Shown: positions 2,464-7,828 of the stretch, piece after piece
Position numbering within the stretch: position 1 is the first letter of the stretch
Layout: every line of letters begins with the position of its first letter
Assembly (NCBI GenBank): GCA_965204745.1
Contig: OZ242010.1
Coordinates: 4,224,001 to 4,288,000 of the forward strand
DNA length: 64,000 nucleotides
Direction of reading: 5' to 3'
From: Candidatus Latescibacterota bacterium
GTDB taxonomy: Bacteria > Latescibacterota > UBA2968
The notes under the pieces: model-generated
Seen by the model: only the letters and a program-made list of their open reading frames with translations
The model's database searches: none
Told to the model about the DNA's origin: nothing
Position numbers and translations under genes: made by a program

Positions 2464-4404
2464 TTAAAAATACAAACTGTGCCCTTGCCCTTGGAAGCAC
2501 AGGGCGTCGATGACAAAGGACGCGCCAGCCGCGGAAAAGTGCCCGACCACGAGGCCCACAAAAACGGGCTTGGCGCGGTTGTAGAGCATCAGGCCGCCGA
2601 AGCGGATCAGCAGCACTTTGATGGCCCAGGCCGCGAACAGGGACAACAACGTCCACTTCACTTGCCCCACAGAGGCGATAGAAAATCCAATGGGATGCAG
2701 GCGCCACCACGCGAACCGATGGCGGCAGTACGTCAGCAAAACCGTCACGAGCGCGCCCAAGGCCAAAAACGCGAAGTGCCCGAAGCGCAGGGTTTCTGCG
2801 GCTTTGATTTTCGCCACGACCGTATCAAAGGGCACTTGGCCGCCGCGCCGAAAAACCCATTCCCCAAAATTGTACGCGCCCGAGGCGTATGCCAGTTTGA
2901 GCGAAAAATAAAAGGACACCATCAAGCTGAGGGCCAGGGCCAAGCCCACGGCGGTGAGGTACGCGCCGCGCGGAAATCGCTGCTCGCTGTGGACGCGGGC
3001 CGCGTTCGCGCCAAAGGGCATAAATGTGGCGATGGGGTCGCACGCCCAGCCGTAGGACAGGCCGAGGCCGGTCATGGTCGCGGCCGTCAAATTCGCCGGG
3101 CCGACGAGGTGCATCGCGTACGCCTGCGGCACGAGCGGGCCGCGCACGAACACCAGCCCGCCTTCGATGACGATGCGCGTGAGGCCCAAATAAAGCGTGA
3201 CAACCGCAAAGAGCAACAGCGAAGCCACGCCCGGCTGGATCCCGATGCGCGTCAGCCAGAACAAAATGTAGAGCGCGCCGAGCGCGATGCCGAGCAGGGC
3301 CGCGCGATAGCCCATGATTTCCTCGCGGTCAGACGCGCCGTCGGCCTTGCCCCGTGCGGTTCGCCACACCCCGCGCAGATGTTCGCGCGCGACCCATATC
3401 CCGCCCATCACGACCGCGACAAAGGCCCCGAACCCCTGCCAGGCCAATGCGGCCGGGCTGACCGAATACACTTCGGACGTGCCGATAGTGAACCCCGTGC
3501 GGTTGAACAGCGCGACCTCGGCCATGTTGAACAGGTTGAAAAACCACACGCTGAAAATCACATCCACATTCACAAAATACGTGATGCCCACCAACGGCAG
3601 GGACAAGTTGGTCGAAATCCCCGGCCAGACCTGCCCGCCCAGGAGGTTCAAGCGGAGGGCCGGGATAGTGGGCCAGCCCTCAAAAAAGTAGCCCGGCACG
3701 TTCCACGCGATTTTGCCCGCGGCAATGCCAAAGCCGATCCAGAACAAGCGACTCCGCATGAATTGCGGTAGCAGGCGATCCTCACCTGCGCCCACCATCA
3801 TCATCAACGGGACGTCGACCAGCGGAAAATTGAGGCGTTCTTTGTCCTCCCACTGCTTGCGAAAAACCGCGATGAGACACGTACAAAGCGTCATGGTGGC
3901 GACGATGACGGACCCCCACCAGAACAGGGGCATGACCCACACGCGCCAGGGGATTTGCGCGCCCGGGGGCAGGCCCTCGAAAAACCACGCCACTTCGCGG
4001 CCTTCGCCGGGCACGGCCCACAAGGGTACATGGCTGTGGATGAACTCGGCCCATCCATTTTCGGTCGTGGCAAAATAAAAGGGCGACGCGGCTACGGAAA
4101 TCACGTAGCCGGTCGCCCCATACGTGGGCACGGATACCGCGACCAACAGCATCATATAGACCACGCCCAACTCATCGCCGGTCAGGCCGCCGCCGCGCTT
4201 TACAGCTTTCAAGATCGGATTGAGCACCACGACGACGAGGATGAACAACGCGGCCAAGCCCAACGGAAAATAATTGGTGGTCAACAGGGTGGATCGCACG
4301 ATCCATTCGGAATACGGCGCCAACAGATTCACCGCAACGACGACGAGAACGCCAATGCCCAATGCCTTTGGCGTGAGGACGGCCGCGGGCGGGGTTTCTG
4401 ACAT
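2464..4404 (-). CDS. polytopic membrane protein, DUF6785/DUF6784-like putative transporter
   Basis: many TM segments; RKQWEDKERLNFPL and WWRLHPIGF motifs; start set at ATG 4404 because the ORF extension runs through a repeat. Confidence 0.75.
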   Translation of the reverse strand: MSETPPAAVLTPKALGIGVLVVVAVNLLAPYSEWIVRSTLLTTNYFPLGLAALFILVVVVLNPILKAVKRGGGLTGDELGVVYMMLLVAVSVPTYGATGYVISVAASPFYFATTENGWAEFIHSHVPLWAVPGEGREVAWFFEGLPPGAQIPWRVWVMPLFWWGSVIVATMTLCTCLIAVFRKQWEDKERLNFPLVDVPLMMMVGAGEDRLLPQFMRSRLFWIGFGIAAGKIAWNVPGYFFEGWPTIPALRLNLLGGQVWPGISTNLSLPLVGITYFVNVDVIFSVWFFNLFNMAEVALFNRTGFTIGTSEVYSVSPAALAWQGFGAFVAVVMGGIWVAREHLRGVWRTARGKADGASDREEIMGYRAALLGIALGALYILFWLTRIGIQPGVASLLLFAVVTLYLGLTRIVIEGGLVFVRGPLVPQAYAMHLVGPANLTAATMTGLGLSYGWACDPIATFMPFGANAARVHSEQRFPRGAYLTAVGLALALSLMVSFYFSLKLAYASGAYNFGEWVFRRGGQVPFDTVVAKIKAAETLRFGHFAFLALGALVTVLLTYCRHRFAWWRLHPIGFSIASVGQVKWTLLSLFAAWAIKVLLIRFGGLMLYNRAKPVFVGLVVGHFSAAGASFVIDALCFQGQGHSLYF

Positions 4405-4464
4405 GGTGCGTTGAATGGATTGTACCACGATGGGATTCTCGGAGTGATTAAGACGGGAGGGGGT

Positions 4465-4574
4465 TAGCCACAAAAGGCACGAGCGGGGTACAACTGGCGA
4501 TAGCCAGTTCAAAGGCACAAAAGGCGAGCAGGATGTGTAGGGGCGATGCCCCTGTGCTCGCCCTAAGATACAAG
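4465..4574 (-). repeat. REP-containing small repeat element, copy A
   Basis: minus strand CT-TGTATCTT, GGGCGAGCACAGGGGCATCGCCCCTAC (GTAG-type REP hairpin), CCTTTGAACTGGCTATCGCCAGTT, TTTTGTGGCTAA; homologous to 18170-18378, 24885-24960, 27238-27291. Confidence 0.85.
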
Positions 4575-4655
4575 GGGAATGGCGAGAGGTGAGAGGCGAG
4601 AGGTGAGGCAACCCCGCCCATCCGCTCCCTTCAGGTAAGATACTCTCTTAAAAGG

Positions 4656-5663
4656 TCAAGGGGTTTTCGGGGTGATTCGATAGAATTTTTCGCCCTCAAA
4701 ATCTTGGTCATGGCGCAACATGCCCCAGATCGAATGGAGCAACTTTCGCATCACCGCAACGATAGCCTGCAAAGGTTTCTTGCCGCGGGCGATGAGTTGG
4801 TCATAGAAGGCTTTGACATGGCCTTCGTGTCTGATGGCCACCCAGGCAGGCATATAGAGGGCATGGCGGAGGTACTTATTCCCGGTTTTCGAGATGCGTC
4901 TTTGTGGATTGGCGGTTCCGGATTGTTTGGGTTTGGGATCCAGGCCTGCATGTGCGACCCACTGGGGCGGTTGCATCTCCTCTGGCAAAAGGGTCAACTC
5001 GGCCAAGAGCCGCAAGGCACTCGTTTGCGCGATGCCAGGCGTCGAGCAGAGGCGTTGGTAGGCACGCTTGAGGGGCTCATCGTGCAAAACGAGATCGAGG
5101 GCTTGGCTTTCCAAGTATGCAATCCGGCGTTTGAAGTGTCGAATATTCACCTGAATATCGCGTGCGATGAGACGTGTGCTGCGGATGTGGTAGCTCTGCG
5201 CGTGGTTGCGGCTCTGTTCGCGGATGATCTCCTGCTTGAGTTGGTCAATGCGTCTGGTGAGGGCTTGCAGTTGAAGCCGTTGCTCGCTCGGCGCTTGCCA
5301 AGGCACAAAAGGCATGCGCTCGGCATAGTCGAGGATCAACAACGCATCCTTCGCATCCGTCTTCGCCCGTTGCATGCAGGCTTGGGCGTACTTGCTCATC
5401 GCTTTGGGATTGACGACCATGACCTTTGTGTGGCGATGCCGATGCAAGGCCAAGGCCACCCCCAAACTGTAAAGCCCGGTCGCTTCGAGGCACACAGAGA
5501 CCATGTGCCCGCCCTTCGTGAGCCACTTCAGCAACCGCTTATGCGCTTGGGGATCATTGGCAAAGGTCGCTTGCATGACAGCTTGTCCGGGTCTGGACAG
5601 GGCAACGGACAACGTGCGGGCACTGACATCAATGCCGGCAAAAGCGGGGTGAGATTTCGACAT
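4656..5663 (-). CDS. IS110-family DEDD recombinase/transposase
   Basis: GIDVS, CLEATG, KTDAKDA (D-E-D-D), QSG serine motif, RISKTGNKYLRHALY, AVMRKLL; AGGAGG RBS before ATG 5663. Confidence 0.95.
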   Translation of the reverse strand: MSKSHPAFAGIDVSARTLSVALSRPGQAVMQATFANDPQAHKRLLKWLTKGGHMVSVCLEATGLYSLGVALALHRHRHTKVMVVNPKAMSKYAQACMQRAKTDAKDALLILDYAERMPFVPWQAPSEQRLQLQALTRRIDQLKQEIIREQSRNHAQSYHIRSTRLIARDIQVNIRHFKRRIAYLESQALDLVLHDEPLKRAYQRLCSTPGIAQTSALRLLAELTLLPEEMQPPQWVAHAGLDPKPKQSGTANPQRRISKTGNKYLRHALYMPAWVAIRHEGHVKAFYDQLIARGKKPLQAIVAVMRKLLHSIWGMLRHDQDFEGEKFYRITPKTP

Positions 5664-5734
5664 GGGGGCCTCCTGTGATGAGGGGGTTGTAAGGGATCTG
5701 GTGCGCGCTCGGGGTCGCGTCCCGACCATTGACG

Positions 5735-5916
5735 CCAAGTCTACCGGTCTTGTATATGCAGCCTCAAGGGGCTTAGATACTCTTCGGCATAGACCCGGCG
5801 GTCGGGGGGCCTATCTTACCTACAAGGTCATCGCCTTCAAGAGGGGCCGGCCTTCCCCGAGCCGGGCATCAAGATGGCTTATCTCGATACGAGGGCGCAA
5901 CTCCTAATTAACCCTT
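5735..5916 (-). ncRNA. predicted IS110 bridge RNA (ends approximate)
   Basis: target loop with guides at 5840-5848 and 5815-5821 around an AAGG/CCUU stem; donor loop with guides at 5775-5783 and 5749-5755 around an AGCC/GGCU stem, closed by GUCUA/UAGAC. Confidence 0.8.
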
Positions 5917-6003
5917 ACTTCCAAGATACAAGAGGGGAGACGTAAGATGCAATTTTAGCCACAAGCCAGGGACAGGGTCTCTGGCTCTTTTTGTGTCATT
6001 TCC

Positions 6004-6200
6004 GCTCCTTCAAATCATAACATCTTGTAACAAATCGTAACAAATCGCACATGTTACGTGAATGCGAAAGAAAGTTGATTTGATAGACGCTTCACAGGGC
6101 GTGCGTCCACGCGCTTACAACCTCGTGTCCGTCTTACAGCACCTCCACGTCCGTTTAGCGACTCGGCAGGGCTTGCCGCGTCGTAGTGTTTCAAATTGAT
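6004..6200 (-). ncRNA. putative omega/reRNA scaffold of TnpB (5' end approximate)
   Basis: position at the element 3' end overlapping the tnpB tail, as established for TnpB elements; structure not computed. Confidence 0.45.
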
Positions 6201-7283
6201 GGCCGCGTTCAAATCGCGGTTGAGGACGAGACCGCAAGACAAGCAGACATAGTCGCGCTGTGATAAATCCATAGCGACTTTGCGTTGTCCACAGCCTGAG
6301 CATGTCTTTGTGCTGGCAAACCACCGGTCGGCTTTTTCAAAAGCCACGCCAGACCATTGGCACTTGTATTCAAGCATGCGAAGGAATCCGCTGATACCTG
6401 CGCGGTGGAACGCACGCGACAGGCTCTTGTTGCGGCGCATACCAGCAACATTCAGCGTCTCGACAATCACCTTGCCAACGGTCGTCGCTTTGACAATCGC
6501 GGAAGTGGCTTTGTGGTGAACATCGTCGCGGATGTTGGTGATGCGCCCAAAGATGCGCTGTCGTTGGTCATACAAGCGTTGCCTGCGGTTACTGCGTTGG
6601 TTCTTGCCATGCGTGTTCTTTGACCGCGCAAGGGCTTTGTCCACACGGCGCAACTTGCGATACTGCGTATCTATCGCGCCCTTGGGATTGTCTATCGTCG
6701 TGCCATCCGAATAGGTTGCCAGCGTTTTCAATCCCATGTCGATGCCGATGGTTTCTCCGTCGCGTTTATCGGGCGGCTCCTGTCCTGTATCGACAGACAA
6801 GCAGACAAACCATCGGCCATGCGTCTTGGTTACGGTGGCTTTGACAATCGCGCCATTAAACCGCAGACGCTCGGCCATCTTGACCCAGCCAATTTTGGGC
6901 AGAAAGACCTTTTTGCCATCCACCTTGACCGTACCGGGCCCGTTATCGGCTTGATACGCACGCTTGCCAGAACGCTTGCGGTGTGTCGGGAAGCGCACGC
7001 GCAGTTTCTTGTTTCGCCAGTTCTTGATGGCTCTGTCAAGGTCGTGGATGGCATTCTTGGATGCGTATTGTGACAACTCGCCAGACCATTCATACTCGGC
7101 CTTTTTGACCACATTGAACTCGCGCTTGAGCGTATAAAGCGACTTGAACACGCCTGTATCCAGGGCGGCCTTGAACGCATTGAGCGCGTGATTGTACACC
7201 ACACGCGCATAGCCACAATGCTTTGAAAACAGCGTTGCTTGGGCTTGCGGGTGCATCAGTGCAATTTTGTGCGTCTTGACCAT
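6054..7283 (-). CDS. tnpB: RNA-guided endonuclease TnpB
   Basis: N-terminal HKIAL...GYARVVYNHAL, RuvC GIDMG / IVETLNV / RDLNAAINL, Zn ribbon CSGCG...CLSCG. Confidence 0.93.
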   Translation of the reverse strand: MVKTHKIALMHPQAQATLFSKHCGYARVVYNHALNAFKAALDTGVFKSLYTLKREFNVVKKAEYEWSGELSQYASKNAIHDLDRAIKNWRNKKLRVRFPTHRKRSGKRAYQADNGPGTVKVDGKKVFLPKIGWVKMAERLRFNGAIVKATVTKTHGRWFVCLSVDTGQEPPDKRDGETIGIDMGLKTLATYSDGTTIDNPKGAIDTQYRKLRRVDKALARSKNTHGKNQRSNRRQRLYDQRQRIFGRITNIRDDVHHKATSAIVKATTVGKVIVETLNVAGMRRNKSLSRAFHRAGISGFLRMLEYKCQWSGVAFEKADRWFASTKTCSGCGQRKVAMDLSQRDYVCLSCGLVLNRDLNAAINLKHYDAASPAESLNGRGGAVRRTRGCKRVDARPVKRLSNQLSFAFT

Positions 7284-7456
7284 TGACCTGTCCAATATAA
7301 AAATCCGCCGATGGTTGTATCCAAAGCAAGGCTTTGCCACCGGCGGAATCAAACAAATACAAAAATGGCCTTGCTTTTGGATACACACCTTAGACGACTA
7401 CAAACGACAAAAGATTCCACCTTTTTGTGCGATTTGTGATGATTTGTTACAAGATG

Positions 7457-7828
7457 TTATGATTTTACCGCACTGTTACTTACCCCTGCTGGCATGTCGC
7501 GCTTGTGAATGTATTCCTGCCTCGCCATCATCGTCAAAATGCCCACCAAAAGACTGAGCAATAGCACCAAGCCCGCGGGCATAAATTTGCGCGTGCGGAC
7601 AAACCGGCTCAGAAAAATGCCCGTGAGCAACAGCCCGACAAGCCCGCCGGTCAAAAATCCAATTTCGGGATCGCGCAGGCTTTGCCAGAAGCCGACCAGT
7701 GCGACAGCGCCGCTGACCGCACCTGCAAACAAAGAGGCAGAACTCCCGGTCTTCACCTTCCCAACGATGCCCCCCGCGATCAACAACGCGCCGTAAATCG
7801 CCAGTGCCACTTGTGCTGTTTCGATCAT
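7457..7828 (-). CDS. TMEM14-family small membrane protein, C-terminus altered by the TnpB element
   Basis: YGALLIAGGIVGKVKTGSSASLFAG and RFVRTRKFMPAGL motifs; GGAG before ATG 7828; stop lies within the element end. Confidence 0.8.
   Translation of the reverse strand: MIETAQVALAIYGALLIAGGIVGKVKTGSSASLFAGAVSGAVALVGFWQSLRDPEIGFLTGGLVGLLLTGIFLSRFVRTRKFMPAGLVLLLSLLVGILTMMARQEYIHKRDMPAGVSNSAVKS

What the first reader, a model, noticed from the sequence alone, without database searches (positions are those of the whole stretch)
4638..5932. Complete IS110 with a bridge RNA whose four guides are readable and match its own junctions
Seen (minus strand): left junction CTCCCCT-CT-TGTAT, right junction AGAGTAT-CT-TACCT. 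This gives target CTCCCCT-CT-TACCT and donor AGAGTAT-CT-TGTAT. The non-coding end contains, in order, GGCCCCUCU (5848-5840, 7/9 to target left), AGGUAAG (5821-5815, exact complement of CTTACCT), AGAGUAUCU (5783-5775, 9/9 donor left) and AUACAAG (5755-5749, exact complement of CTTGTAT), each pair flanking an internal stem. Circularisation creates TTGACC-N18-TATCTT. Established: this is the IS621-type bridge architecture; as I recall, the IS621 donor ACAGTATCTTGTAT differs by one base. Inference: an intact programmable recombinase ortholog with a new target specificity.
Basis: partly seen in the sequence, partly recalled or inferred. Interest (0 to 1): 0.8.

Follow-up and report, generated by a model that had tools for sequence, protein, structure and literature searches.

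The report
Active bridge-RNA IS110 targeting heptamer repeats
This is an intact, recently mobile insertion sequence of the known IS110 bridge-RNA type that has spread to about fifty copies by homing into 7-bp tandem repeats, so it is a new member of a known class rather than a new kind of system.

Summary
Window 4638-5932 (minus strand) is a 1295-bp IS110-family element. It has a 335-aa DEDD+Tnp recombinase (NCBIfam "IS110 family RNA-guided transposase") and a 269-nt left end. That end holds four guide segments matching the element's own junctions, with the strand rules published for IS621.

The independent evidence is strong:
- The genome holds 52 full-length copies, 51 with an intact ORF, all flanked by CT and inserted in (TCTYRCC)n heptamer arrays.
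- Across seven guide variants in three genomes, guides co-vary with flanks. The own guide is best or tied in 68 of 74 copies, and the true pairing beats all other 5039 permutations.
- Relatives at 48-64% identity keep the layout. RNA covariation supports two stem/internal-loop/stem modules (14 compensatory pairs against 7.1±1.4 in shuffles).
- A contig from another study carries the precise empty site, skipping 1293 bp.

The recalled IS621 donor is in print, and this donor differs from it by one base.

Expression, circle formation and programmability were not tested. Verdict: a new member of a known kind, of moderate interest as a natural case of guide reprogramming.

One thing is unexplained. 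More than 90 sites resembling IS left junctions (LT-CT-TGTATCTT) are fused to a REP-like hairpin repeat.

The parts
4638..5932 (-). Complete IS110-family element, 1295 bp counting a CT core at each end
   Evidence: 52 full-length copies in the genome all begin and end here. Contigs of runs X1 and X3 start at 4638, and an X3 contig skips 1293 bp between 4636 and 5930.
5933..5939 (-). Left target half (LT), CTCCCCT
   Evidence: Among the 45 copies with the same guides, 34 have CTCCCCT here.
5931..5932 (-). Left copy of the CT core
   Evidence: CT is present at this position in 52 of 52 copies.
4638..4639 (-). Right copy of the CT core
   Evidence: CT is present at this position in 52 of 52 copies.
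4633..4637 (-). Right target half (RT), TACCT
   Evidence: TACCT or TGCCT occurs in 41 of the 45 copies with these guides.
4656..5663 (-). Recombinase gene, 335 aa plus stop; the AGGAGG ribosome-binding site lies at 5674-5669
   Evidence: PF01548 at 1.2e-24 and PF02371 at 4.8e-20. NF033542 at 213.8 bits against a cut-off of 140. ISCro4 at 7.6e-40 and IS621 at 5.8e-36. D12, E60, D103, D106 and S248 align with the IS621 catalytic residues.
5734..5916 (-). Predicted bridge RNA, about 180 nt. The 5' end is inferred from the junction promoter and the 3' end from the end of the donor-loop stem.
   Evidence: Fold, consensus structure and covariation. The ends are inferred, not measured.
5802..5860 (-). 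Target-binding loop module: outer stem 5860-5849 with 5811-5802, inner stem 5837-5834 with 5827-5824
   Evidence: Helices 1 and 2 (93.6% and 100% of cells paired), mapped by me from alignment columns.
5840..5848 (-). Left target guide (LTG), GGCCCCUCU. Its last 7 nt are identical to the target top strand, so they pair with the bottom strand.
   Evidence: Variants GGCGCC.., GGTCCC.., CTCGCC.. and GATCCTC.. track their own flanks.
5815..5821 (-). Right target guide (RTG), AGGUAAG, complementary to CT-TACCT. The next two nt, AU at 5814-5813, are complementary to donor positions 7 and 6, which makes them a handshake-guide candidate.
   Evidence: Variants AAGTAAG, AGGTGAG, AGAAAAG and TAGGGAG track their own right flanks.
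5734..5799 (-). Donor-binding loop module: outer stem 5799-5785 with 5746-5734, inner stem 5773-5770 with 5763-5760
   Evidence: Helices 3 and 4. In helix 3, 9 of 13 pairs show changes on both sides.
5775..5783 (-). Left donor guide (LDG), AGAGUAUCU, identical to the right-end terminus plus core
   Evidence: In relative L064 the right end reads GAAAACC and the loop reads GGAAAACC, so the two changed together.
5749..5755 (-). Right donor guide (RDG), AUACAAG, complementary to CT-TGTAT at the left end
   Evidence: It is conserved in the own-genome variants.
4654..4659 (-). -35-like TTGACC in the right end, overlapping the stop codon
   Evidence: TTGAC/TTGA is kept at a fixed distance from the right end in all 9 distinct relatives (15 nt, against 16 nt here).
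5923..5928 (-). -10-like TATCTT in the left end. It forms a promoter with the -35 only after the ends are joined (18-nt spacer here, 17 nt in relatives).
   Evidence: No sigma-70-like site was found inside the integrated left end. The junction-promoter model is from passages of PMC11208160.

Best explanation
This is an autonomous IS110-group insertion sequence that moves by bridge-RNA-guided recombination.

Proposed mechanism:
1. The element excises as a circle. The joined right and left ends (AGAGTAT-CT-TGTAT) form the donor site and bring a -35 box (TTGACC) and a -10 box (TATCTT) together.
2. That promoter drives a roughly 180-nt RNA from the left end, and behind it the recombinase gene.
3. 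The RNA has two internal loops. The first pairs with the genomic target CTCCCCT-CT-T(A/G)CCT: its 5' side pairs with the bottom strand and its 3' side with the top strand. The second loop pairs the same way with the donor junction.
4. The DEDD/Ser recombinase exchanges strands at the CT core, which ends up on both sides of the insert.

Because the target is two adjacent units of an abundant 7-bp tandem repeat, the element has multiplied to 52 full copies. Sub-lineages have retuned their target loop to other repeat variants.

Shown here: the anatomy, protein family and catalytic residues, copy number, insertion specificity, guide/target and guide/donor covariation, RNA structure covariation, and a precise empty site.

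Inferred: transcription, RNA ends, circle formation, RNA-protein binding and the strand-exchange chemistry, all by homology with IS621.
For: Anatomy and guides.

Protein:
- PF01548 plus PF02371.
- NF033542 'IS110 family RNA-guided transposase', 213.8 bits against a cut-off of 140.
- The only PDB sequence matches are the bridge recombinases ISCro4 (7.6e-40) and IS621 (5.8e-36).
- The DEDD and Ser residues align with those of IS621 (numbering).

Copies:
- 52 full-length copies among 77 BLAST segments.
- 51 of 52 have an intact 335-aa ORF, and 34 encode the identical protein.
- CT flanks both ends in 52 of 52.

Target choice:
- Exact 14-mer targets with TACCT: 15 occupied, 5 free.
- The G.U-wobble variant with TGCCT: 15 occupied, 55 free. 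Fisher p = 1.8e-5.

Covariation of guides with flanks:
- Seven guide classes, 74 copies, three genomes.
- The own class is best or tied in 68 of 74 copies.
- Mean 9.0 against 6.1 paired positions out of 12.
- 1 of 5040 class permutations reaches the observed score.
- Variant v6 has changes in both guides, and both match its flanks.

Divergent relatives (48-64% identity) keep the layout. Their RTGs match their own right flanks at 6-7 of 7 positions, read by eye. In L064 the donor end and donor loop changed together.

RNA structure:
- RNAalifold gives two stem/internal-loop/stem modules.
- 93.9% of cells are paired.
- 14 pairs have changes on both sides, against 7.1±1.4 in shuffles (0 of 500 reach it) and at most 6 in the slid controls.

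Empty site: an X3 contig joins 4636 to 5930, skipping 1293 bp, which is the element minus one core. X3 also holds near-identical flank contigs.

The strand rules and core inclusion match passages of PMC11208160.
Against: - No RNA evidence: no listed run is on record as RNA, and all runs are kept as contigs.
- No circle junction appeared among the laid contigs.
- Single-sequence folding energy is unremarkable (z = -1.53).
- Rfam gave no match at E <= 1.
- The first two LTG bases do not pair, and the LTG match alone is common in shuffles (6531 of 20000).
- 6 of 74 copies fit another class's guides better. Copy c602780 sits at a site matching variant v6's guides, not its own. Two main-class copies have CCCGT on the right.
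- The guide classes are related by descent and the targets are all similar heptamers, so the statistics overstate independence.
- The empty-site joint rests on one contig with 30 letters on its shorter side, laid at 90% likeness. The tool warns this is borderline in metagenomes.
- The 100% identity among copies in an assembled genome could be partly an assembly or polishing effect.
- The 5' hairpins are not supported by covariation.
Confidence: 0.92

Rival explanations
1. The element is structurally intact but no longer mobile. On this reading, the identical copies reflect an old burst, gene conversion or assembly homogenisation, and the apparent empty site comes from a related strain that never received this copy.
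For: No circle junction or RNA was seen. The empty-site evidence is one short contig. One of the 52 copies has a truncated ORF, and about 20 fragments exist.
Against: 30 copies are 100% identical over 1295 bp, and 51 of 52 ORFs are intact. Within X3, the empty-site contig (depth 45.8) coexists with occupied-end contigs and with near-identical flanks (depths 83.9 and 77.7), so this site is polymorphic for the insertion. Even if the empty allele belongs to a sister strain, the insertion is recent.
Confidence: 0.07
2. The matches between loops and junctions are a by-product of the low-complexity, heptamer-like sequence, and the protein alone chooses the target.
For: The LTG-like match alone is frequent in shuffles. 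All targets are variants of one heptamer, so cross-class scores are high (mean 6.1 of 12).
Against: All four motifs together occurred in 0 of 20000 shuffles. Guide changes track flank changes in seven classes, with 1 of 5040 permutations reaching the observed score. G082 and the more distant relatives insert into sites that are not heptamers, and their guides still match. The solved homologues are RNA-guided.
Confidence: 0.01
3. It belongs to the IS1111 or seekRNA branch, with the guide RNA encoded downstream of the transposase.
For: The IS1111 branch carries the same Pfam domains.
Against: The right end is only 18 nt after the stop codon, while the left end is 269 nt and holds both loops. This is the IS110-group layout described in PMC11208160 (figure legend passage).
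Confidence: 0.005

Closest known systems
IS621 (E. coli) and its bridge RNA (Durrant et al. 2024, PMC11208160; Hiraizumi et al. 2024, PMC11208158)
   Same: - Same two-domain recombinase with aligned DEDD and Ser residues.
- Long left end and short right end.
- An RNA of about 180 nt with a target loop followed by a donor loop.
- The 5' loop sides carry the top-strand sequence and the 3' sides its complement.
- CT core.
- The donor AGAGTAT-CT-TGTAT differs at one base from the IS621 donor printed in PMC13396178.
- An AU handshake candidate follows the RTG, matching the A81/U82 given for IS621.
- A promoter split across the circle junction.
   Different: - The protein is only distantly related (127.6 bits, E 5.8e-36), and there is no DNA-level match in E. 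coli genomes.
- The target is a 7-bp tandem repeat rather than a REP element.
- The RTG reads 7 nt here, whereas the IS621 analysis used a four-base RTG.
- The host is a Latescibacterota genome.
- There are 52 copies, with co-resident guide variants.
ISCro4 bridge recombinase (PDB 9t56)
   Same: It is the best solved-structure sequence match (E 7.6e-40, 140.4 bits, residues 7-326). It has the same domain layout.
   Different: The relationship is distant.
ISPpu9 and ISPpu10 of Pseudomonas putida (PMC12288879; bioRxiv 10.64898/2026.03.19.712850)
   Same: Both are IS110 members present in multiple copies and inserted into a repeated intergenic sequence of the host. I saw the abstracts only (search listing).
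   Different: Their targets are REP or other conserved intergenic sequences, not short tandem repeats. I did not compare sequences.
IS1111-group elements with seekRNA
   Same: Same protein superfamily and the same principle of RNA-guided site choice.
   Different: They have a short left end and a long right end that carries the RNA (legend passage). Here the arrangement is the reverse.

Membership tests
IS110-group bridge-RNA insertion sequence (IS621 type) | Recombinase with an N-terminal DEDD (RuvC-like) domain and a C-terminal Tnp domain | tested here: met
   PF01548 at 1.2e-24 and PF02371 at 4.8e-20, both above the gathering score. NF033542 equivalog at 213.8 bits against a cut-off of 140.
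IS110-group bridge-RNA insertion sequence (IS621 type) | Catalytic DEDD residues and the Tnp-domain serine | tested here: met
   Query D12, E60, D103, D106 and S248 align with the IS621 chain residues. With a constant +2 offset these correspond to D102, D105 and S241 as named in PMC11208158. The numbering of the first D and the E is recalled, not seen in a call.
IS110-group bridge-RNA insertion sequence (IS621 type) | Long non-coding left end and short right end | tested here: met
   The left end is 269 nt (5932-5664) and the right end is 18 nt (4655-4638). The criterion comes from the legend passage. I did not search for terminal inverted repeats.
IS110-group bridge-RNA insertion sequence (IS621 type) | Left-end RNA with two consecutive stem/internal-loop/stem modules | tested here: met
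   RNAalifold on 19 sequences. 93.9% of cells are paired. 14 pairs have changes on both sides, against 7.1±1.4 in shuffles (0 of 500) and at most 6 in the slid controls.
IS110-group bridge-RNA insertion sequence (IS621 type) | 5' stem-loop preceding the target loop | tested here: inconclusive
   Two hairpins appear in the single-sequence fold. The consensus over 7 distinct close sequences is only -4.0 kcal/mol with little covariation. This region does not align among the distant relatives.
IS110-group bridge-RNA insertion sequence (IS621 type) | [quoted passage not shown] The core is included in each pairing. | tested here: met
   Direct reading against the rules. Covariation across 74 copies in 7 classes. 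Relatives support it as well.
IS110-group bridge-RNA insertion sequence (IS621 type) | Site-specific insertion with a dinucleotide core on both sides and a scarless empty site | tested here: met
   CT is at both ends in 52 of 52 copies, with conserved flanks. An X3 contig skips exactly 1293 bp; this is a single contig with a 30-letter side.
IS110-group bridge-RNA insertion sequence (IS621 type) | Promoter reconstituted across the circle junction | tested here: inconclusive
   The sequence fits: TTGACC, 18 nt, TATCTT. The -35 box is conserved at a fixed distance in 9 relatives, and there is no sigma-70-like site inside the integrated left end. Neither the circle nor transcription was observed.
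IS110-group bridge-RNA insertion sequence (IS621 type) | Handshake guides 3' of the RTG and RDG | tested here: inconclusive
   The AU after the RTG is complementary to donor positions 7 and 6 (T, A). After the RDG, the first base (A) pairs with target position 7 (T), but the second (C) does not pair with position 6 (C).
IS110-group bridge-RNA insertion sequence (IS621 type) | The RNA is expressed, binds the recombinase and is required for recombination | not testable with these tools
   No run is on record as RNA, and only contigs are kept.
IS110-group bridge-RNA insertion sequence (IS621 type) | Match to a curated covariance model of the RNA | tested here: inconclusive
   No Rfam 15 family matched 4300-7600 at E <= 1. 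I cannot tell whether Rfam holds a bridge RNA family. The published custom model was not available.
IS1111 group (seekRNA) | Short left end, with a long right end carrying the guide RNA | tested here: not met
   The right end is 18 nt, and both guide loops lie in the left end.

The most novel reading that the evidence does not exclude
The bridge system may not only exploit the genome's short repeats but also have helped to make them.

Observations that fit this reading:
- The 7-bp period of the target arrays equals core plus right target (2+5). It also equals the spacing of the two CTs at the element's left tip (CT-TGTAT-CT).
- GTATCT(T) is repeated at both ends of an inserted copy. An excision or deletion in the shifted register would therefore leave a 7-bp TGTATCT unit.
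- More than 90 sites per genome read LT-CT-TGTATCTT, fused to a REP-like hairpin.
- The arrays are abundant only in the two genomes whose element is tuned to them.

On this reading, the stubs and part of the arrays are footprints of register-shifted or half-match recombination guided by the bridge RNA, or substrates for it.
Probability: 0.1. Interest if true: 0.7.

Novelty: new member of a known kind. Interest (0 to 1): 0.38.

Why it matters
This adds a well-documented natural bridge recombinase from an uncultured phylum, Latescibacterota. The same element also appears in contigs of a run labelled sponge metagenome. Its donor is almost identical to that of IS621, while its protein is distant and its target unrelated.

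Its main value is as a natural experiment. One genome holds 52 copies and several co-resident guide variants, each sitting at matching variants of a 7-bp repeat. Exact-match sites are occupied far more often than wobble sites. This gives in-vivo data on mismatch tolerance and on how target loops drift. It also provides ready-made guide/target pairs for testing in a heterologous assay.

It does not change what is known about the mechanism.

Tried and rejected
- Rfam 15 scan of 4300-7600: no match at E <= 1.
- blastn (distant mode) of the element against E. coli genomes, to fetch IS621 for a direct RNA comparison: no match. No direct RNA alignment with IS621 was therefore made.
- Single-sequence folding energy against shuffles: z = -1.53, uninformative.
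- Consensus for the 5' hairpins: weak.
- Sequencing runs: no RNA holder is listed.
- Laid contigs showed no joint that goes back by about 1293 bp, which a circle or perfect tandem would give. Contigs cannot exclude it.
- Choi et al. 2003 is not held.
- The main texts of the two 2024 Nature papers do not print the donor sequence. Supplements are closed, so I could not check whether this element is already in the published ortholog tables.
- Idea that the TGTATCTT-hairpin repeat is a MITE of this element: only 1 of 68 copies has an IS-like right end within 400 nt.
- Idea that hairpin units without the 7-bp prefix exist as virgin sites: most of the 30 of 74 units lacking the exact prefix carry a degenerate version of it.
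- Co-occurrence of that repeat with the element in 3 of 21 genomes of the genus: the hairpin core itself is confined to the same three genomes, so kinship explains it equally well.
- The TnpB element upstream ends before the insertion point. Similarity among its copies stops at about 6000-6050, so the IS did not insert into it.
Full report
**What is in the sequence**

All positions are read on the minus strand.

- The left junction is CTCCCCT (5939-5933), CT (5932-5931), TGTAT (5930-5926).
- The right junction is AGAGTAT (4646-4640), CT (4639-4638), TACCT (4637-4633).
- Between the ends lies one long ORF, 5663-4656, of 335 aa, preceded by AGGAGG at 5674-5669.
- The non-coding left end is 269 nt. 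The right end is 18 nt.

I shuffled the 259-nt left end 20000 times.

| Motif | Shuffles containing it (of 20000) |
|---|---|
| 9-mer equal to the right-end terminus | 10 |
| 7-mer complement of the left end | 177 |
| 7-mer complement of the right flank | 250 |
| >=7/9 match to the left flank | 6531 |
| All four together | 0 |

The left-target match is weak on its own. The combination is not.

**The protein**

- It carries PF01548 (DEDD_Tnp_IS110, 1.2e-24) and PF02371 (Transposase_20, 4.8e-20).
- It exceeds the cut-off of the NCBIfam equivalog NF033542, 'IS110 family RNA-guided transposase' (213.8 bits against 140).
- Only two distinct PDB sequences match. Both are bridge recombinases: ISCro4 (9t56, 7.6e-40) and IS621 (8wt6, 5.8e-36).
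- In the alignment to the IS621 chain, query D12, E60, D103, D106 and S248 stand opposite the chain's D13, E62, D104, D107 and S243.
- With a constant offset of two, the last three are D102, D105 and S241, the residues named catalytic in PMC11208158 (passages). The numbering of the first two is recalled.

**Copies and target**

- blastn of the element against the window's own 5.48-Mb genome gives 77 segments, of which 52 are full length.
  - 30 are 100% identical.
  - 7 are at 99.1-99.9%, 8 at 96.1%, one at 95.8%, one at 94.8% and 5 at 88.3-89.0%.
- 51 of the 52 keep a 335-aa ORF, and 34 encode the identical protein.
- All 52 have CT on both sides.
- The flanks are units of a 7-bp tandem repeat, (TCTYRCC)n. 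The genome holds 674 arrays of three or more units, up to 48 units long.
- The 45 copies with the window's guides sit mostly at CTCCCCT-CT-TACCT (15) or CTCCCCT-CT-TGCCT (15).
- TGCCT differs from the RTG's perfect partner only by a G opposite U.
- Unoccupied exact 14-mers number 5 for TACCT and 55 for TGCCT.
- Occupancy is therefore 15 of 20 against 15 of 70, odds ratio 11, Fisher p = 1.8e-5.
- This is what a guide that prefers perfect pairing but tolerates a wobble would produce.

**Do guides and targets change together?**

The sub-lineages differ in the two target-loop segments and little elsewhere in the loops.

| Lineage | LTG | RTG | Flanks observed |
|---|---|---|---|
| 88-89% group | GGCGCCTCT (one copy GGTGCCTCT) | AAGTAAG | CTCGCCT (3 of 5; the other two have A where the guide's G could wobble) and TACTT (4 of 5) |
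| 95.8% copy (v6) | GGTCCCTCT | AGGTGAG | CTTCCCT and CACCT; both changes are matched |

The same element occurs at 76-84% protein identity in two complete MAG chromosomes titled Latescibacteria/Latescibacterota. The genome tool places both in the window's genus.

- In one of them (G091) the loop reads CTCGCCTCT / TAGGGAG. The copies sit at CT(C/T)(G/A)CCT-CT-CCCGT.
- In the other (G082) the loop reads GATCCTCCT or GATCCCCCT / AGAAAAG. The copies sit at ..CCTC-CT-TTTCT, which is not a heptamer array.

I scored 7 left and 5 right positions for 74 copies.

- These were the 52 own copies plus 22 of the 25 relatives. Two relatives were dropped because my pattern did not find their right end. One was dropped because the loop pattern failed.
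- A copy's own guide class scores best or ties in 68 of 74.
- The mean is 9.0 paired positions, against 6.1 for foreign guides.
- Of all 5040 ways to assign the seven guide classes to the seven groups of sites, only the true one reaches the observed score.

The classes are related by descent, so this is not a clean probability, but the diagonal is clear.

Exceptions:
- Copy c602780 sits at a site that fits v6's guides rather than its own.
- Two main-class copies have CCCGT on the right.

**More distant relatives**

A protein search of 168 genomes of the phylum finds matches at E <= 1e-40 in 12 of them. Within the genus, 3 of 21 genomes match, counting the window's own.

Elements at 52-64% identity, and one at 48% in a Gemmatimonadota scaffold, all show the same order of parts:
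- a TGTA(T/C)CTT left tip;
- a first loop whose 3' side is complementary to CT plus the element's own right flank. Examples are ACGTTAG with CT-AACGT, AAGTGAG with CT-CACTT, GCGTGAG with CT-CACGC and CCGTTAG with CT-AACGG;
- a second loop carrying the right-end terminus.

In L064 the right end has changed to GAAAAC-CT, and the donor loop reads GGAAAACC accordingly. I read these matches by eye. They were not scored by a script.

**RNA structure**

The single-sequence fold places each guide pair on opposite sides of an internal loop, but its energy is not unusual (z = -1.53).

An alignment of 19 sequences gives an RNAalifold consensus with two modules:
- outer stem, internal loop, inner hairpin for the target loop (window 5860-5802);
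- the same for the donor loop (5799-5734).

Counting pairs on that structure:
- 93.9% of 570 cells pair.
- 14 of 30 pairs show changes on both sides, against 7.1±1.4 in 500 shuffles. None of the shuffles reaches 14.
- Sliding the partners gives at most 6.
- Most of the covariation is in the donor-loop outer stem, where 9 of 13 pairs have changes on both sides.

The region 5' of the target loop does not align among the distant relatives. Among the close ones it gives only a weak consensus, so the 5' stem-loop is unconfirmed.

Rfam has no matching family.

**Comparison with published rules**

Passages of PMC11208160 state the following.
- The 3' side pairs with the top strand over four to seven.
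- The core dinucleotide is part of all four pairings.

The element fits each point.

PMC11208158 defines handshake guides as the two nucleotides after the RTG and RDG.
- Here AU follows the RTG. It is complementary to donor positions 7 and 6, like the A81/U82 of IS621.
- After the RDG only the first base fits.

The donor here differs at position 2.

**Promoter**

- The right end holds TTGACC (4659-4654), overlapping the stop codon.
- Joined to the left end, it lies 18 nt from TATCTT (5928-5923).
- In the nine distinct relatives, TTGA(C) lies 15 nt from the right end, against 16 nt here. That gives a 17-nt spacer.
- No sigma-70-like site is found inside the integrated left end on the minus strand.
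- This fits the published model in which excision rebuilds the promoter (passages).
- It remains sequence-level evidence only.

**Mobility**

Twenty listed runs from eight studies hold the element or part of it. All are kept as contigs, and none is on record as RNA.

I laid four runs from four studies on window 4200-6400.
- One X3 contig joins 4636 to 5930, skipping 1293 bases. This is exactly the element minus one CT.
- The joint has a four-letter ambiguity that covers the core.
- X3 also has contigs matching the unique flanks with 0 and 1 differences: 4200-4434 at depth 83.9, and 5930-6126 at depth 77.7.
- X3 and X1 both have contigs that begin at 4638.

The joint rests on one contig with 30 letters on the shorter side, laid at 90% likeness. 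The tool flags this as borderline. Both sides are unique sequence rather than heptamers.

I read it as an empty-site allele with the predicted boundaries.

**Novelty**

- No held paper contains both IS110 and Latescibacter*, or both IS110 and heptanucleotide.
- A looser search on tandem-repeat terms returned only unrelated papers among those listed.
- The published ortholog tables are in supplements that I could not open, so the element may already be listed there.
- In kind it is an ordinary IS110-group bridge system.

**An unexplained side finding**

Outside the full copies, the genome holds 238 copies of the left-tip octamer TGTATCTT. Of these, 154 are preceded by CT.
- In my rough estimate from base composition, about 6 would be expected by chance.
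- Sixty-eight run into a REP-like hairpin unit (GGGCGAGCAC-GGGGC-ATC-GCCCC-TACA).
- The nine bases in front of them have the consensus CTCCCCTCT.
- These sites therefore look like left junctions of the element without the element.
- One lies 60 nt downstream of this copy, at window 4574-4534.
- Only 1 of 68 has an IS-like right end within 400 nt.

Distribution in the genus:

| Pattern | G000 | G082 | G091 | Other 18 genomes |
|---|---|---|---|---|
| CTTGTATCTTNGGRC | 91 | 105 | 182 | 0-2 each |
| Hairpin core | 76 | 228 | 36 | 0 |
| Heptamer array pattern | 778 | 1 | 310 | at most 6 each |

- The hairpin core is confined to the same three genomes that carry the element, so shared descent explains the co-occurrence equally well.
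- Most units without the exact prefix carry a degenerate version of it.
- An inserted copy has GTATCT(T) at both ends. A deletion or shifted-register excision between them would leave exactly LT-CT-TGTATCT-RT.
- Some truncated copies end at CT-containing pseudo-sites.
- The heptamer arrays are abundant only in G000 and G091, the two genomes whose element is tuned to heptamers.

Whether the element helped to create these repeats, or merely resembles and exploits them, is open.

Noticed in passing
Whole genome G000; in the window for example 4579-4607 (minus strand): The genome holds 674 arrays of three or more units of a 7-bp tandem repeat (TCTNNC[CGT]), up to 48 units long. The commonest units are TCTTGCC, TCTCACC and TCTTACC. 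A three-unit pattern matches 778 times in G000 and 310 times in G091, but at most 6 times in each of the other 19 genomes of the genus.
   Followed up: partly
Window 4534-4574 (minus strand), with more than 90 further sites in G000: A REP-like hairpin unit of about 40 nt begins exactly with CT|TGTATCTT, the element's left tip, and is preceded by a consensus CTCCCCT. It therefore looks like an IS left junction without the IS. It is confined to the three genomes of the genus that also carry the element. Its origin is unresolved.
   Followed up: partly
Window 4469-4516 (minus strand): A second short palindromic repeat (GCCTTTGAACTGGCTATCGCCAGTTGTACCCCGCTCGTG..) has up to about 310 BLAST matches in the genome.
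   Followed up: no
Window 6054-7388 (minus strand): A TnpB-like ORF of 444 aa carries the OrfB_IS605, Cas12f1-like TNB and HTH_OrfB_IS605 domains. It lies 121 nt upstream of the IS left end. Three other copies at about 85% identity exist. Similarity among the copies stops near 6000-6050, so the IS110 element lies outside it.
   Followed up: partly
L093 (G000:C1:1121391-1124382): Two full copies lie head to tail, one 100% and one 96.1% identical to the window copy. They are separated only by CT-TACCT-CT. The second copy inserted into the heptamer unit immediately after the first.
   Followed up: partly
G000:C1:2972659-2972860: A miniature derivative consists of left-end positions 1-185 joined to the last 6-10 nt of the right end, through an AAGA(G) microhomology at the right donor guide. 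It is flanked by heptamers. It keeps both termini and the whole target loop.
   Followed up: no
G000:C1:950644-950704 and 2089406-2089468: Two truncated copies. One ends right after an internal CT (element positions 60-61) and continues as a heptamer unit. The other ends at position 63 and continues as TATCTTTGGGC, the hairpin repeat. Truncated copies that keep the left tip (9 or more) outnumber those that keep the right tip (4).
   Followed up: no
Window about 5708-5722 (minus strand), and the same place in relatives: A short motif just after the donor loop (GGTCGGGACGCGACC here; GGTC(C/G)GGGGACC or GGCGGGAGACC in relatives) is conserved down to 52% protein identity. Its role is unknown.
   Followed up: no
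G000, upstream of several hairpin units: A second kind of 7-bp tandem repeat, (CTGACYA)n, precedes some hairpin units.
   Followed up: no
Runs X6, X7, X9, X10, X14; X6 laid: Runs labelled sponge metagenome hold half or more of the element's sampled words. In X6, IS-internal contigs fit with 0-2 differences. A second, more divergent variant is also present there (26 differences over 272 nt).
   Followed up: partly
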